A DNA stretch of 64,000 nucleotides from a virus (lineage: Duplodnaviria > Caudoviricetes). Both the position numbers and the translations under genes were made by a program. The stretch spans positions 32,001 through 96,000 of IMG/VR virus record IMGVR_UViG_3300037067_019204; one strand, given 5' to 3'. How positions within the stretch are numbered: the first letter of the stretch is position 1; every line of letters starts with the position of its first letter. Below the pieces are notes generated by a model that worked only from the letters and a program-made list of their open reading frames with translations, did no database searches and was not told the DNA's origin. Of this stretch, positions 2,397 to 9,056 are shown in pieces.

Positions 2397-2825
2397 TTAC
2401 ATCATTTCATTTAATAATTCACGAACCTTCATTAAACTAATACCTAATTGATTTCTACCCACACCATTAATTTTTCCCCAATAATTGTCTACTGGGCTTG
2501 CTTCTTCAAGATAAGAATCTCCAGTAGCAATCAATTGTTCGGCAATATCTTTATTTTGCGTAAATTTGCATACTAACGCAAAAAGCATTATTTTATCTTT
2601 AACTTGATCCCAATCTTTTCTTAAAGCAATAATATTACCATTTTGTCTAGATAACTTAGGTGTAGGACTTTTTCTTATAAATTCATGGTCAGATTCTGTT
2701 TTTGCTTTATATGCTTGATAAAAATGTTCTGAGGTTGGATATAATTTACCATTACATATAATTTCAGATTTATAAAAATTAGACATAAATCCAAATTGCT
2801 CATTTGTTTTATAAAATTTTATCAT
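2397..2825 (-). CDS. NADAR (YbiA-like) family protein
   Basis: FMSNFY, YPTSEHFYQAYK, RKDWDQVK..IM, KFTQN, LIATG, EASPVDNYWG, GRNQLG..LMKVR. Confidence 0.92.
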   Translation of the reverse strand: MIKFYKTNEQFGFMSNFYKSEIICNGKLYPTSEHFYQAYKAKTESDHEFIRKSPTPKLSRQNGNIIALRKDWDQVKDKIMLFALVCKFTQNKDIAEQLIATGDSYLEEASPVDNYWGKINGVGRNQLGISLMKVRELLNEMM

Positions 2826-2853: not shown

Positions 2854-2939
2854 AAAAAAAGAGGTAAAAAGTTTAAATCGTTGTTTTTTAGCTAATTTAG
2901 TTATAGTTGATAAACAATTTAATCCGTACCTCTTTTTTT
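2854..2939 (-). ncRNA. Y RNA-like stem-loop F (downstream of ro60; ends in U tract, may double as terminator)
   Basis: 5'-AAAAAAAGAGGUACGGAUUAAAUUGU UUAUC ...ACGAUUUAAACUUUUUACCUCUUUUUUU-3'; same GGUACGGA stem and UUAUC motif as the upstream copies. Confidence 0.75.
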
Positions 2940-2943
2940 GTTT

Positions 2944-4560
2944 TTATAGTTTTCCCATACTAAATTGACTAATTATTTGTGGTGCGGCACTATCAAATCC
3001 TACTATATCCAATGAATTTGGATCTTGAGGATCTGCTATAGAAAATTCAGACCCAACCATTCCAACAACAATCATTTTAGCATCTTTAATCCTCTGGTTT
3101 CTATACTCATGCAAGGCTTGCATAGGATGCATCTTCCCAAACCAAGTTTCATTATCTGTATATGTAACAAATACATCAAAATCAAGTTTCCTATCTTTTG
3201 CCCATATCATTGGAACAGAGCAATCAGTTCCAGCAAAAGGAAGATTTCTCATTTTTTGAAGAGTTTGTCCCAATGTCATATCTGGAGTTATGTCCAAATT
3301 AACAAAATTTGTAGAAAAACCCATTACTTCATAATTTTGTTCTTTTCTTGCTGTAACCATAGCCATACAAGCACTAGCTTCACGACAAGTTAATATCCCC
3401 TGTGCTCCAGAAATATAACTATTTGTCATTGAACCAGATACATCTAGCCCAAGAAGATAACGTTTTCCTGTAGATTCAACATTTTTAAAACTTAAATAAA
3501 ACATTTCTTCAAGAGCATCCACAATTTTTTGAACAGGAACCCAAGAAAGTTTTCCTTTAATTCCATGACCCATTGAATATGTCTTCATGGCAATCAAGAT
3601 ATTCAAAGGATGCATTCTACTTTTTTCTACATGAGAAAGATCAGTTAATTTTTTTGTAACTAAATTAATCTCATCAAACTTACCTTTTGAAAGAATTTCT
3701 AAAGAGCTTAGTTTTCCGAGATTACGAACCAAAGCTCCTAAAGGCAAATCATCCAAAGCAGAATTCCATACTTTTGCACGATTCTTTAACTCTGTTGGCC
3801 ATGCTTCATGAGGAATCTTATATTCTTTTATAAGCTTGCAAGCATCTTTTTCAGAAGCGTTTTTAAGTTCTTCTACAGCTTTCAAAAGATTAAATCCTTC
3901 AGAAATCTCACCTTTAACTGCATATTTAAACAATGAATTATGCTTATCAGACACAGGTTTTACGTGCGCAGAACGAAGCACATCACGATGTGTCCATTGG
4001 TTATTTGAACCTTCTACAGTACGACCTTGATACTTGATCATTTGATATTCAAGTTTTTCTGGGGACATGCTATACCAATTAGCTATAGCACTACGCACTG
4101 AACGACCCCAACTTCTCATTGAATCCAAGTAATGCACAAACATAAACAAGTGTGTTCCTATACGGCATACTTTAGGAAGTGCTTGAACAATTTCTTTTTT
4201 AACATCAAAATCTTTGCATTGAGTAAACAATACTGCTAACAAATAGATTGCTTGATCATTTTTAGGTGCACGGCCCTCATCAGAAATTTTAACTATTGTT
4301 TCAAGAACACGCTTTGGGTTTTCATTAATACAAGCAATACAGTTTTCTATATTAGCTTTAGTCAAATCATGTTCTGAAACATAATATGTTCCACCCTCTG
4401 AAGAAAGGATAAGAAATCTTTCCAATCTTTTCCATTTGTCAATAATGAAGGTATAACCACCTGCATTATTCATAGCCATTTCTTTTTCACGACCCGGAAT
4501 GGGCTTATATTGAGGTGTTCTCTTGTTATTAATTTGATGTTTTGTGTAATTGATAGCCAT
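2944..4560 (-). CDS. rsr: Ro60/Rsr RNA-binding protein (TROVE + vWA domains)
   Basis: NNAGGYTF...RLERFLILSSEGGTYY, CRIGTHLFMF, KYQGR...WTHRDVLRSAH, ALVRNLGKL, SRMHP; vWA MIDAS LDVSGSM, GTDCSVPM, TDNET, GFDS; AAGGAG RBS at 4568-4573. Confidence 0.96.
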   Translation of the reverse strand: MAINYTKHQINNKRTPQYKPIPGREKEMAMNNAGGYTFIIDKWKRLERFLILSSEGGTYYVSEHDLTKANIENCIACINENPKRVLETIVKISDEGRAPKNDQAIYLLAVLFTQCKDFDVKKEIVQALPKVCRIGTHLFMFVHYLDSMRSWGRSVRSAIANWYSMSPEKLEYQMIKYQGRTVEGSNNQWTHRDVLRSAHVKPVSDKHNSLFKYAVKGEISEGFNLLKAVEELKNASEKDACKLIKEYKIPHEAWPTELKNRAKVWNSALDDLPLGALVRNLGKLSSLEILSKGKFDEINLVTKKLTDLSHVEKSRMHPLNILIAMKTYSMGHGIKGKLSWVPVQKIVDALEEMFYLSFKNVESTGKRYLLGLDVSGSMTNSYISGAQGILTCREASACMAMVTARKEQNYEVMGFSTNFVNLDITPDMTLGQTLQKMRNLPFAGTDCSVPMIWAKDRKLDFDVFVTYTDNETWFGKMHPMQALHEYRNQRIKDAKMIVVGMVGSEFSIADPQDPNSLDIVGFDSAAPQIISQFSMGKL

Positions 4561-4580
4561 AGCTAATCTCCTTTTATAAA

Positions 4581-4649
4581 TTTAGGTCAAGTAGTTGTAA
4601 TGGAATTGCATCACCCAAATGTAGATAACCCATCACGTCCGTACCTAAA
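4581..4649 (-). ncRNA. Y RNA-like stem-loop E
   Basis: 5'-UUUAGGUACGGACGUGAUGGG UUAUC ...CCAUUACAACUACUUGACCUAAA-3'; ends pair; 3' CUUGAC strand as in Y RNAs; immediately upstream of the ro60 RBS. Confidence 0.85.
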
Positions 4650-4655
4650 AACCTA

Positions 4656-4783
4656 TGGCCAAAGAGTTGGACTCGAACCAACGACCCACAGTTTCCAATG
4701 ATAACCCTATTCTCCGTGCATTTCTGCCAAGTTGTTGAAAAGGGAAATACAACTGCTGCTCTACCAACTGAGCTATCTTTGAC
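4656..4783 (-). ncRNA. tRNA-shaped Y RNA D (Ro-binding stem replaces anticodon loop)
   Basis: acceptor GUCAAAGA/UCUUUGGC(CA); D arm GCUC AGUUGGUA GAGC; stem GCAGUU/AACUGU; insert CCCUUUUC AACAA CUUGGCA GAAA UGCACGGA GAAUAGGG UUAUC; T arm GUUGG UUCGAGU CCAAC. Confidence 0.85.
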
Positions 4784-4790
4784 ATGCATA

Positions 4791-4870
4791 TTTGGTAAAT
4801 TTTTTTTGATCAGAAAGTTCTTTTCAGAACAACCAATTTCATGTTGATAACTGATCAAATCCGTACCAAA
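4791..4870 (-). ncRNA. Y RNA-like stem-loop C
   Basis: 5'-UUUGGUACGGAUUUGAUCAG UUAUC ...CUGAUCAAAAAAAAUUUACCAAA-3'. Confidence 0.82.
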
Positions 4871-4873
4871 ATT

Positions 4874-4998
4874 TTCCGTGGGTTGGACTTGAACCAACGA
4901 CCCCTTCCTTACAATGGATAATCCTCTTTCATTCGTACATTACTGTCAAGTGGTGAAAAAGGAACTTTAAGTGCTCTACCAATTGAGCTACCACGGAA
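4874..4998 (-). ncRNA. tRNA-shaped Y RNA B (Ro-binding stem replaces anticodon loop)
   Basis: acceptor UUCCGUGG/CCACGGAA; D arm GCUC AAUUGGUA GAGC; insert UCCUUUUUCA CCA CUUGACA GUAA UGUACGAA UGAAAGAGGA UUAUC; T arm GUUGG UUCAAGU CCAAC. Confidence 0.85.
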
Positions 4999-5007
4999 TA
5001 TATACTA

Positions 5008-5072
5008 CAGGTAAAATTTATACTATTCGGGGGGTATCTCTTGACTTGATAACCGAATAGAATCCGTACCTG
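5008..5072 (-). ncRNA. Y RNA-like stem-loop A
   Basis: 5'-CAGGUACGGAUUCUAUUCGG UUAUC AAGUCAAGAGAUACCCC CCGAAUAGUAUAAAUUUUACCUG-3'. Confidence 0.82.
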
Positions 5073-5080
5073 ATATTTTC

Positions 5081-5109
5081 ATATAATATAAATATTAAAT
5101 ACTTGTCAA
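5081..5109 (-). promoter_or_regulatory. probable promoter of the Y RNA-ro60 operon
   Basis: TTGACA at 5109-5104 followed by AT-rich -10-like sequence (TATTAT/TATATG); spacing imperfect. Confidence 0.5.
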
Positions 5110-5130: not shown

Positions 5131-5165
5131 AAAAAAAGCGGTGGATTTTAAGGCCCACCGCTTTT
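5131..5165 (-). terminator. intrinsic terminator
   Basis: AAAAGCGGTGG-loop-CCACCGCTTTT with U7 on the minus strand. Confidence 0.8.
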
Positions 5166-7973: not shown

Positions 7974-9056
7974 TTAAGCCCTATACATTGTTAAATGTAT
8001 AATTTTTCCATTAAATTCTACAGCCTCTCCCATTAATCGTTTAGTCTTATTTCTATCTTCATTTTCAGGAAGAATTTGCCTAATTTCAATAACTTTGTAT
8101 TCTTTATTATCAAATAAAGTTTTTTCTTCAAAAGTTGTATTTAATTTCTTTCCAAGGAGGGCTTTTACTTTCTCTGCTTTAAACTCAAAAAGATTAGTAT
8201 CATCTTTTTTCAGATAATTACTACCTTCTTTTTCAACAACATCATTTTTTACAGCTTTCCAAGAATCTGGAAGATCATATACATCTAAACCCTTTATCTC
8301 ATTTTCATAAAGAAAAATAGCACCAATTTGGTTTTCAATAGGTGGTATTTTTTTAAGCATTTTTTGAATCATATCTGACATTTCATCAAGTGTTCCAACA
8401 AGATCATCACAATACAATGATCTTACATTAACATCTCCAAGAGTATCATTTCCTGAAATATCTAAATGAGTATGAGATGCTGAATATATTTCAGCAGGAA
8501 GTACCATACTAGTAGTTGTTATTTCAGGATCATAGAATCTACGAGCTGGATTTCTAAGTATATTTTTGTCAGTGCTTTTTAAGTTTGATGTGGTTGCATA
8601 TTGAGTATTAAAGTTACTAACAGTACTCCAAGTGCGAGACTGACTGGAAAGATCTACATCATAAGGTGCATATCCTCCAAATTTCATCTCAGCTCCCTTT
8701 GAAATACCTTTTGTTTGGTGGATACAACGAACAGAAACTTTTTGACCTCTCCCTGCTCCTATAATGTATCCATGAATTGCAGCTCTTTCTTGGGTTTTAC
8801 CTTTAAAGATTTCACCACGACTAATAAACAGTGGTTTATCTTCATTATTTTTTACATACACAGAATCAACAGCCCCTGTGTCTTCTACTTTTACATCTTG
8901 AGCTTCTGCAAAAGTAATGTAATCTCTTTTCAAGTCACTGTCTCTTTTAACAGGAACAATAACTGAAAGACTTCCTTCATCCAATCTCCAAGCCTCATCG
9001 AGCTGGAATCCATTGGTCTCCTCTACGATAGACTTGATAAAATTTTGTGCTGACAT
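7974..9056 (-). CDS. ARPP-1 (DUF6569)-like domain protein carrying a portal-like peptide
   Basis: VYVKNNEDKPLFISRGEIFKG.TQER...VSVRCIHQ, SSQSRTWS.V, QIGAI, LDVY resemble the ARPP-1 family; internal ILRNPARRFYDPEITTT. Confidence 0.65.
   Translation of the reverse strand: MSAQNFIKSIVEETNGFQLDEAWRLDEGSLSVIVPVKRDSDLKRDYITFAEAQDVKVEDTGAVDSVYVKNNEDKPLFISRGEIFKGKTQERAAIHGYIIGAGRGQKVSVRCIHQTKGISKGAEMKFGGYAPYDVDLSSQSRTWSTVSNFNTQYATTSNLKSTDKNILRNPARRFYDPEITTTSMVLPAEIYSASHTHLDISGNDTLGDVNVRSLYCDDLVGTLDEMSDMIQKMLKKIPPIENQIGAIFLYENEIKGLDVYDLPDSWKAVKNDVVEKEGSNYLKKDDTNLFEFKAEKVKALLGKKLNTTFEEKTLFDNKEYKVIEIRQILPENEDRNKTKRLMGEAVEFNGKIIHLTMYRA

What the first reader, a model, noticed from the sequence alone, without database searches (positions are those of the whole stretch)
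4581..5072. Simple Y units resemble animal Y4/sbRNA and fall into two bulge registers
Seen: Y-A reads CAGGUACGGAUUCUAUUCGGUUAUC...CCCCCCGAAUAGUAUAAAUUUUACCUG, and Y-E reads AGGUACGGACGUGAUGGGUUAUC...ACUUGACCU. From recall, human Y4 begins GGCUGGUCCGAUGGUAGUGGGUUAUC and ends CCCCCCACUGCUAAAUUUGACUGGC, and nematode sbRNAs carry a conserved UUAUC at the same loop position. All six copies have A in place of the first C of GUCCG. B, D and E (3' strand CUUG(A/G)C) would bulge that A, while A, C and F (3' strand UUUACC) would pair it and bulge the C. Inference: UUAUC is a deeply conserved Y-family element, and the two registers may tune Ro60 affinity.
Basis: partly seen in the sequence, partly recalled or inferred. 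Interest (0 to 1): 0.7.

Follow-up and report, generated by a model that had tools for sequence, protein, structure and literature searches.

The report
Phage Y RNAs beside Ro60 gene
A large low-GC phage encodes four small hairpin RNAs next to its Ro60 gene that carry the same Ro60-binding module as animal Y RNAs, so they are ordinary members of a known RNA family, and comparison with about 180 relatives shows how deeply the module's small motifs are conserved.

Summary
On the minus strand, four simple hairpins (A 5072-5008, C 4873-4790, E 4651-4580, F 2935-2858) flank a Ro60 gene (2944-4560; TROVE + Ro60 vWA). Two more Ro-type helices (B, D) sit inside tRNA-like RNAs.

A covariance model built without A, C and F finds exactly these units in 64 kb and in the 161-kb record. 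It also hits 113 same-strand sites in 160 other Ro60 loci, with strong covariation. Rfam's nematode sbRNA model hits C and E below its threshold; the vertebrate Y_RNA and YrlA models do not.

A UUAUC-blind scan supports deep conservation of the motif. On the Ro60 strand 182 of 370 lower-stem candidates carry UUA(U/C/A)C, against 1 of 194 on the other strand. The motif lies 10 nt after CGR in 136 of 179 modules, the spacing of human Y4 and the sbRNA consensus. The closest relative uses UUAAC, and bacterial YrlA work already noted a conserved YUAY here.

The two "registers" are real. Family covariation (C:G 113, U:A 57) shows the canonical form pairs position 8 and bulges the invariant C9. A, C and F keep this form through an A-U pair seen nowhere else; B, D and E carry a clade-typical A·G. 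Affinity tuning is untested.

Verdict: new members of a known kind, of moderate interest. Other first-stage notes of this scan describe the same array on this same stretch of DNA.

The parts
5008..5072 (-). Y-A, a simple Y hairpin. 5' CAGGUACGGAUU..CGGUUAUC, 3' ..AAAUUUUACCUG. N8:q8 is A-U, with C9 bulged.
   Evidence: Sequence. Fold -17.1 kcal/mol, z -2.47. R1 gives 28.6 bits, E 4.5e-6, and the unit was not in the seed.
4790..4873 (-). Y-C, a simple Y hairpin. GGUACGGAUUUGAUCAGUUAUC ... CUGAUCAAAAAAAAUUUACC. N8:q8 is A-U.
   Evidence: R1 gives 35.1 bits, E 5e-8, not in the seed. Rfam RF01656 gives 25.8 bits, E 0.0044 in the 516-nt search. Fold z -2.66.
4580..4651 (-). Y-E, a simple Y hairpin that ends 7 nt before the ro60 ribosome-binding site. 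GGUACGGACGUGAUGGGUUAUC ... CCAUUACAACUACUUGACC. N8 opposite q8 is A·G.
   Evidence: Rfam RF01656 gives 24.7 bits, E 0.0084. The unit is 80% identical over model columns to the ro60-proximal unit of L002. It is a seed of R1.
2858..2935 (-). Y-F, a simple Y hairpin directly after the ro60 stop codon. It is followed by a U7 run and then the NADAR ribosome-binding site. GGUACGGAUUAAAUUGUUUAUC ... ACGAUUUAAACUUUUUACC. N8:q8 is A-U.
   Evidence: Sequence. R1 gives 28.8 bits, E 3.9e-6. Fold z -4.28. No Rfam hit.
4874..4997 (-). tRNA-like RNA 1. A 62-nt insert in the anticodon position holds the permuted Ro-type helix Y-B: CACUUGACAG-UAAU-GUACGAAUGAAAGAGGAUUAUCC. N8 opposite q8 is A·G.
   Evidence: Rfam tRNA model 48.3 bits. 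ARAGORN calls no tRNA. Sequence.
4658..4782 (-). tRNA-like RNA 2. A 58-nt insert holds Y-D: CUUGGCAG-AAAU-GCACGGAGAAUAGGGUUAUC. N7:q7 has changed to C-G, and N8 opposite q8 is A·G.
   Evidence: Rfam tRNA model 44.2 bits. Sequence.
2944..4560 (-). ro60 gene, 538 aa.
   Evidence: Pfam vWA_Ro60 1.8e-65 and TROVE 3.5e-35. PDB matches: human RO60 4.6e-113, D. radiodurans Rsr 8.2e-109, X. laevis Ro60 1e-106.
5080..5109 (-). Promoter-like stretch ahead of Y-A. It has a perfect -35 TTGACA (5109-5104) and A/T-rich -10 candidates: TATTAT with a 15-nt spacer, or TATATG with an 18-nt spacer.
   Evidence: Read. The consensus scan does not call it, so this part is inferred.

Best explanation
Units A, C, E and F are phage-encoded Y RNAs of the simple, YrlB-like kind. 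Each is a hairpin whose base is the Ro60-binding module found from bacteria to humans.

The module has these elements:
- a terminal helix ending in GGU;
- position N8 paired with q8 on the 3' strand;
- an invariant bulged C9;
- G10-U and R11-U pairs;
- a multi-nucleotide bulge on the 3' strand (..ACUUG);
- an upper stem of about 9 bp closed by two G-C pairs;
- UUA(U/C/A)C immediately after the upper stem.

**Shown here:** homology and fold of the module, its linkage to ro60, the conservation of the motifs, and the covariation.

**Inferred from known systems** (D. radiodurans, Salmonella, Thermus phage phiLo):
- The units are made from the ro60 operon transcript. The interleaved tRNA-like RNAs probably serve as processing signals.
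- The units bind the phage Ro60 on its outer surface through the 5' strand and C9.
- They gate Ro60 or tether it to a host exoribonuclease such as PNPase during infection.

**The two registers.** A, C and F have the family's canonical geometry, with an A-U pair at N8:q8. B, D and E have A opposite G, so the free RNA probably slips to bulge A8 and pair C9 with G. If Ro60 needs C9 unpaired, the G-type units would pay roughly 2-3 kcal/mol to bind. Whether this grading of affinity is selected or is drift in a 27-35% GC genome is open.
For: **Gene context.**
- Ro60 is confirmed.

**Detection by an independent model.**
- R1 finds the three units that were not in its seed, and nothing else, in the window and in the whole record.
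- In 160 other Ro60 loci, 113 of 115 R1 hits lie on the Ro60 strand, mostly just upstream of the gene.

**Fold and covariation.**
- On the 92-hit alignment, 92.3% of cells are paired, against 64.5% in shuffles and 34-45% in slid controls.
- 483 cells carry double-sided changes, against 149 +/- 9 in shuffles.

**UUA(U/C/A)C, tested without using the motif.**
- 182 of 370 plus-strand lower-stem candidates carry it, against 1 of 194 on the minus strand.
- Spacing after CGR is 10 nt in 136 of 179 modules and 9-11 nt in 173 of 179. GG precedes the motif in 134 of 179.
- The same 10-nt spacing is seen in the sbRNA consensus shown by Rfam and in the human Y4 5' string found in papers.

**Register.**
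- N8:q8 counts are C:G 113, U:A 57, A:G 7, G:C 2. In the R1-hit parse every unit located has C at position 9 (the search itself anchors on a CG dinucleotide) and G10 pairs with U in 76 of 81.
- A bulged C9 as the primary Ro60 site is documented in PMC4030889.

**Precedents.**
- Phage Yrl RNAs upstream of a phage Ro60 bind that protein and the host PNPase (PMC12135203).
- Bacterial and phage YrlA and YrlB are described in PMC4201824.
Against: - There are no expression, processing or binding data for this phage.
- No unit reaches an Rfam gathering score, and A and F get no Rfam hit at all.
- The promoter is not called by the consensus scan.
- E lies 7 nt from the ro60 ribosome-binding site and F sits between ro60 and NADAR, so they could act in cis on the mRNA instead of, or as well as, in trans.
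- The minimum-free-energy fold of E pairs G10 and G11 elsewhere, so thermodynamic prediction in this region is soft.
- R1 and alignment A4 lean towards the seed's features. The blind scan removes this bias only for UUAHC and for N8:q8.
Confidence: 0.85

Rival explanations
1. The hairpins are mainly cis-acting elements of the ro60 mRNA. Ro60 binds E in the 5' UTR to repress its own translation. It binds F in the 3' UTR to control termination or read-through into NADAR and PcfJ. On this view they are not free Y RNAs.
For: - E ends 7 nt before the AAGGAG ribosome-binding site.
- F begins within about 9 nt of the stop codon and ends in U7 ahead of the NADAR ribosome-binding site.
- In many other loci the R1 hit ends 20-60 nt before the Ro60 start.
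Against: - A and C lie far from any coding sequence and are separated by tRNA-like RNAs that would be expected to be cut out.
- Known bacterial and phage Y RNAs encoded in ro60 operons accumulate as separate RNAs (PMC4201824, PMC12135203).
- The two roles do not exclude each other.
Confidence: 0.25
2. The A-U versus A·G split has no function. It reflects AT mutation pressure and neutral compensatory drift in duplicated units, and Ro60 binds all six equally because it reads the 5' strand and opens the helix anyway.
For: - The genome is 27-35% GC, and the change from G to U goes with that bias.
- The split is not kept by position in relatives. All units in L002, L003, L082 and L078 are of the G type.
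- Ro60 mainly contacts the 5' strand and separates the helix (Stein 2005, as cited in PMC4201824 and PMC12135203).
Against: - A-U at N8:q8 occurs in three units of this one phage and in none of about 180 modules elsewhere.
- The three units are only 61-63% alike, so a single recent duplication does not obviously explain the shared U.
Confidence: 0.5
3. The units are ordinary terminators, attenuators or a phage repeat family that resemble Y RNA only by chance.
For: - The stems are AT-rich and F is followed by a U run.
- Rfam scores are below threshold.
Against: - The units occur only at the ro60 locus in 161 kb.
- They share GGUACGG, GGUUAUC and UU(G/U)ACC at fixed spacing.
- The same module lies next to Ro60 in 96 of 160 other loci, with strand bias and covariation.
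Confidence: 0.03

Closest known systems
Simple bacterial and phage Y RNAs: S. Typhimurium and M. smegmatis YrlB, and Thermus phage phiLo Yrl1 and Yrl2 (PMC4201824, PMC12135203)
   Same: - A stem-bulge-stem hairpin without a tRNA-like domain.
- Encoded next to Ro60 on the same strand.
- A CG(A/G) motif on the 5' strand.
- Several Y genes per locus.
   Different: - This clade has A at N8 (GGUACGG), where others have GNCGAA or GGGCCGAA.
- Its N7:q7 pair is U-A, as in animals.
- Three units carry a unique A-U pair at N8:q8.
- The simple units are interleaved with tRNA-like RNAs that carry a permuted Ro helix.
Nematode stem-bulge RNAs (Rfam RF01656; PMC4450293)
   Same: - Unit E matches the consensus GGU.CGGa.....UGGGUUAUC ... 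CCA....A.ACUUGACC almost position for position.
- The spacing between CGG and UUAUC is the same 10 nt.
- The upper stem is closed by G-C pairs.
   Different: - Scores are 24.7-25.8 bits, against a gathering score of 38.
- The source is a phage, not a nematode, so there is no Pol III context.
- The model also hits other phage Y modules, so the likeness is the shared Ro-binding module rather than sbRNA membership.
Vertebrate Y RNAs such as human Y4 (Rfam RF00019)
   Same: - The 5' strand GGU(C/A)CG(A/G) and the 3' strand UUGAC.
- A bulged C9.
- GGGUUAUC placed 10 nt after CGA.
- The partner protein is Ro60.
   Different: - No RF00019 hit at E<=10.
- C8 is replaced by A.
- The loops are unrelated.
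- The likeness of the Y-A C6 run to the Y4 pyrimidine tract is not conserved among the units.
YrlA (Rfam RF02553; PMC4201824; bioRxiv 10.1101/312249)
   Same: - The same Ro-binding module.
- The conserved YUAY that begins the V loop of YrlA lies at the position of UUAUC. Its UA makes the kink seen in the crystal structure.
   Different: - The simple units lack the tRNA-like domain.
- The window's tRNA-like RNAs have the opposite topology, with free acceptor ends and a closed Ro helix, and are not hit by RF02553.

Membership tests
Y RNA family in the broad sense (Ro60-associated RNAs) | Encoded beside a Ro60/Rsr gene on the same strand (the rule for bacterial and phage members) | tested here: met
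   Ro60 lies at 2944-4560(-), and all six modules lie within 520 nt of it on the minus strand.
Y RNA family in the broad sense (Ro60-associated RNAs) | The 5' and 3' ends form a stem with a lower helix, a bulge region and an upper helix | tested here: met
   Folds have z from -2.2 to -4.3. On 90 distinct homologues, 92.3% of cells are paired and 483 cells carry double-sided changes, against 149 in shuffles.
Y RNA family in the broad sense (Ro60-associated RNAs) | A conserved bulged cytidine (C9) in a GGUCCGA-like 5' strand, opposite UUGAC | tested here: met
   C9 is present in all six units. In the R1-hit parse every unit located has C at this position, though the search anchors on CG. Covariation at N8:q8 (C:G 113, U:A 57) places the bulge on C9. 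In B, D and E the free RNA may instead bulge A8 (computed for E only).
Y RNA family in the broad sense (Ro60-associated RNAs) | Bound by Ro60 | not testable with these tools
   This needs a gel-shift assay or co-immunoprecipitation.
Nematode sbRNA (Rfam RF01656) | Score at or above the curated gathering threshold of 38 bits | tested here: not met
   C scores 25.8 bits and E 24.7 bits. A and F have no hit.
Nematode sbRNA (Rfam RF01656) | UUAUC at the 5' end of the loop, directly after a G-C-clamped upper stem | tested here: met
   GGUUAUC in A and E, AGUUAUC in C, GUUUAUC in F. The motif definition comes from PMC4450293.
Vertebrate Y_RNA (Rfam RF00019) | A match to the covariance model | tested here: not met
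   No hit at E<=10 in the 12-kb, 516-nt or 111-nt searches.
YrlA (Rfam RF02553) | A tRNA-like T, acceptor and D domain placed between the strands of the Ro-binding stem | tested here: not met
   The simple units have 20-45-nt loops with no T or D arms. There is no RF02553 hit in the window, whereas actinophage loci do give partial hits.

The most novel reading that the evidence does not exclude
The top of the upper stem plus UUAUC is reported as necessary for DNA-replication initiation by vertebrate Y RNAs and nematode sbRNAs. This reading holds that it is really an ancient, fixed-spacing part of the Ro60-binding module, shared with phage and bacterial Y RNAs, so its primary role concerns the Ro60 ribonucleoprotein: a kink, or the positioning of the effector loop.

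Within that module, bulge migration between A8 and C9 would let this phage keep a graded series of Ro60 ligands in one operon: pre-bulged C9 in A, C and F, and C9 paired in B, D and E.
Probability: 0.3. Interest if true: 0.65.

Novelty: new member of a known kind. Interest (0 to 1): 0.42.

Why it matters
- It adds an uncultured low-GC large phage to the phages that carry Ro60 with their own Y RNAs.
- It supplies a broad, motif-blind data set of about 180 modules from 96 loci. The set shows that GG-UUA(U/C/A)C sits at a fixed 10-nt spacing from the CGR motif in phage and environmental (metagenome) Y modules, as it does in human Y4 and nematode sbRNAs.
- That finding questions whether UUAUC is specific to the replication function described in animals.
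- Covariation at N8:q8 settles, by comparison alone, which of the two cytidines of GGUCCGA is the bulge.
- The phage's natural A-U and A·G variants are ready-made substrates for measuring how the geometry of the bulge affects Ro60 binding.

Tried and rejected
- **Protein searches for relatives.** The search for related loci with the single protein found no relatives.
- **DNA pattern scan.** A clade-specific pattern scan of IMG/VR gave 15 stretches. Only the L002 contig was real; the other 14 have no R1 hit and no Ro60.
- **Actinophage loci.** R1 finds nothing in four cultured actinophage Ro60 loci. By eye, two of them (Gordonia phage BearBQ and Mycobacterium phage Dandelion) do hold Y modules with CGGUUA(U/C)C, but their 3' strands read A(U/C)G rather than UUG.
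- **First seed alignment.** MAFFT misaligned the 3' strands of C, F and one L081 unit, so a five-sequence seed was used instead.
- **Register test on A4.** Counting the two registers on alignment A4 was inconclusive, because the alignment is fitted to R1's structure. An alignment-free parse was used instead.
- **Paralogy of A, C and F.** I considered that these three form a recent paralogue group that would explain their shared U. Pairwise identity of 61-63% does not support this.
- **Literature.** Reviews PMC10870794 and PMC6542706 and Green 1998 (PMC1369656) are not held. I therefore could not check whether the link between YUAY and UUAUC has already been drawn.
- **Energy evaluation.** Evaluating a C·U "pair" for A and C is not meaningful, and the script stopped before F.

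Full report
**What is there**

The window is part of a 161-kb IMG/VR virus record, about 65% complete and 27-35% GC around the locus. All features below lie on the minus strand. In order they are:

- a TTGACA -35 box at 5109-5104;
- Y-A (5072-5008);
- a tRNA-like RNA (4997-4874);
- Y-C (4873-4790);
- a second tRNA-like RNA (4782-4658);
- Y-E (4651-4580);
- a ribosome-binding site;
- a 538-aa ORF (4560-2944);
- Y-F (2935-2858) with a U7 tail;
- a NADAR gene and then a PcfJ-like gene.

The ORF is Ro60. Pfam gives vWA_Ro60 at 1.8e-65 and TROVE at 3.5e-35. It is about equally similar to human RO60, D. radiodurans Rsr and X. laevis Ro60 (382, 368 and 361 bits), so it has no special affinity with animals.

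The two tRNA-like RNAs score 48 and 44 bits on Rfam's tRNA model. They carry 62- and 58-nt inserts at the anticodon position, and ARAGORN calls no tRNA.

**Checking the observation**

All six copies have A where animals have the first C of GUCCG. B, D and E have CUUG(A/G)C on the 3' strand; A, C and F have UUUACC.

The four simple units fold better than their shuffles, with z from -2.2 to -4.3.

I built covariance model R1 from unit E plus four simple units of two related phages, L002 and L003. In the 64-kb window it finds exactly E, C, F and A, with E from 5e-8 to 4.5e-6 for the three units not in the seed, and nothing else at E<=10. In the full 161-kb record the only matches are at this locus.

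**Are they Y RNAs?**

I collected 160 other Ro60 loci, 80 from IMG/VR and 80 from metagenomes. R1 gives 115 hits at E<=1. Of these, 113 lie on the Ro60 strand, and most lie directly upstream of the gene.

On the alignment of 92 hits:

| Measure | Observed | Shuffled | Slid partners |
|---|---|---|---|
| Cells forming a standard pair | 92.3% | 64.5% | 34-45% |
| Cells with a change on both sides | 483 | 149 +/- 9 | - |

Rfam's nematode sbRNA family RF01656 is the best non-tRNA match for C (25.8 bits) and E (24.7 bits). The E-values are 0.1 and 0.2 in a 12-kb search and 0.004 and 0.008 in the 516-nt search. Both scores are below the gathering score of 38. A and F are not hit, and neither RF00019 (vertebrate Y_RNA) nor RF02553 (YrlA) matches.

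The same sbRNA model also hits the Y modules of cultured Gordonia phage BearBQ at 29.3 and 28.6 bits. It therefore detects the generic Ro-binding module. Simple Y RNAs next to phage Ro60 genes are already known: YrlB, and Yrl1 and Yrl2 of Thermus phage phiLo, which bind the phage Ro60 and host PNPase (PMC4201824, PMC12135203).

**UUAUC**

R1 contains the motif, so I tested its conservation separately with a scan that uses only the lower stem. The pattern was a 7-bp helix, N8:q8 paired or A·G, CG(A/G) on the 5' strand and UU on the 3' strand. Results:

- On the Ro60 strand, 370 distinct candidates were found. Of these, 182 carry UUA(A/C/U)C within 3-26 nt after CGR, and 142 carry the exact UUAUC.
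- On the opposite strand, 194 candidates were found, and 1 carries the motif. The excess on the Ro60 strand is therefore essentially all motif-bearing.
- Among 179 distinct modules from 96 loci, the motif starts 10 nt after CGR in 136 and 9-11 nt after it in 173.
- GG precedes the motif in 134 of the 179.
- The fourth base is U in 140, C in 31 and A in 8.

The spacing is also 10 nt in the sbRNA consensus printed by Rfam and in the human Y4 5' sequence, whose string I confirmed in papers. The window's units have spacings of 10 (C, E, F), 11 (A, B) and 9 (D).

Two qualifications apply:

- The nearest relative I could reach, L002 (Ro60 68% identical), uses UUAAC in its simple modules and in one embedded module; the second embedded module reads GGUUACC.
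- Chen et al. 2014 already noted a conserved YUAY beginning the V loop of YrlA. The YrlA crystal structure shows that its UA makes a kink (PMC4201824; bioRxiv 10.1101/312249).

By eye, cultured Mycobacterium phage Dandelion and Gordonia phage BearBQ carry CGGUUA(U/C)C in both their YrlA-type and their simple modules. Because the motif persists in hairpins that lack any tRNA-like domain, its conservation cannot be explained by tRNA mimicry alone.

**The two registers**

An alignment-free parse of the R1 hits and the blind scan agree on position 8 and its partner q8:

| N8:q8 | Count in blind scan |
|---|---|
| C:G | 113 |
| U:A | 57 |
| A:G | 7 |
| G:C | 2 |

In the parse of the R1 hits, every unit located has C at position 9 (the parse anchors on a CG dinucleotide) and G10 pairs with U in 76 of 81. 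The U:A class cannot be drawn in the other register. The family's canonical geometry is therefore N8 paired and C9 bulged. This matches the literature's bulged C9, described as the primary Ro60 site (PMC4030889).

- **A, C and F** follow the canonical geometry with an A-U pair. That pair occurs in no other module of either data set.
- **B, D and E** have A opposite G. So do all units of L002, L003, L082 and L078, which makes it the typical state of their clade.

For E, the nearest-neighbour model favours the slipped form, with A8 bulged and C9 paired to G, by 2.6 kcal/mol (-11.1 against -8.5). The unconstrained minimum-free-energy fold pairs G10 and G11 elsewhere, so prediction here is soft.

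E is 80% identical over model columns to L002's ro60-proximal unit and is probably its orthologue. A, C and F are only 61-63% alike, so one recent duplication does not obviously account for their shared U. The change from G to U also goes with the genome's AT bias.

The idea of tuned affinity remains a hypothesis. A mechanistic version is possible: Ro60 reads the 5' strand and opens the helix (Stein 2005, as cited in PMC4201824 and PMC12135203), so units with C9 already bulged should bind at lower cost than units in which C9 is paired.

**Context**

Arrays are common. The blind scan finds 1-6 modules per locus, and 114 of the 179 span under 100 nt, which makes them simple hairpins.

The consensus scan called no promoter for the array. 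The TTGACA box with A/T-rich -10 candidates is my reading of the sequence. Co-transcription with ro60, and processing at the tRNA-like RNAs, are inferences.

Other first-stage notes cover the array as a whole, the chimeras and possible autoregulation.

**Verdict**

The simple units are new members of the known phage and bacterial Y RNA kind. They carry a clade-specific A8 and three unique A-U variants. The more general result is the motif-blind evidence that GG-UUAHC sits at a fixed spacing in the Ro-binding module of phage and environmental Ro60 loci, matching human Y4 and the nematode sbRNA consensus.

Noticed in passing
L003:2841-2960: A Y-like 5' strand (GGUACGGGGG..GCGUUAUC) whose only good 3' partner, CCACCCGUACC, is also the 5' arm of a terminator hairpin with a U8 tail, directly before ro60. 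This could be a Y-fold versus terminator switch.
   Followed up: no
L178:1230-1450 (Gordonia phage BearBQ), L177:1180-1420 (Mycobacterium phage Dandelion): These cultured actinophages carry both a YrlA-type and a simple Y module with CGGUUA(U/C)C upstream of Ro60, and none is annotated. Rfam's sbRNA model hits the BearBQ modules at 28.6-29.3 bits. RF02553 YrlA hits only the T/D core, below its threshold. R1 misses them because their 3' strand reads A(U/C)G rather than UUG.
   Followed up: partly
window 4658-4782 and 4874-4997: Two tRNA-like RNAs (Rfam tRNA model 44 and 48 bits, no ARAGORN call) carry a closed Ro-type helix at the anticodon position. This is the reverse topology of YrlA. L002 has two homologous chimeras (2654-2779 and about 2786-2905). 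Other findings of this scan cover them.
   Followed up: partly
L005:4825-5529 and L072:2205-2825: Other phage Ro60 loci carry arrays of five Y modules, lying downstream of the Ro60 gene in L005 and upstream of it in L072. The blind scan finds up to six modules per locus, so multi-copy Y arrays are common in phages.
   Followed up: partly
window 2397-2825, 867-2390, 7974-9056: NADAR (1.7e-30) and a PcfJ-like gene (1.4e-14) follow ro60 on the same strand. An ARPP-1 domain gene (5.9e-26) lies about 3.4 kb upstream.
   Followed up: no
window 5134-5165: A strong intrinsic terminator (12 bp, 6 of them G-C, followed by a U run) ends a separate short unit just upstream of the Y array. It bounds the array's transcription unit.
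   Followed up: no
L003:5770-6118; L016:6586-6803: A phage-encoded tmRNA (100.8 bits) lies near the Ro60 locus of L003, and a group I intron (89.1 bits) lies near that of L016.
   Followed up: no
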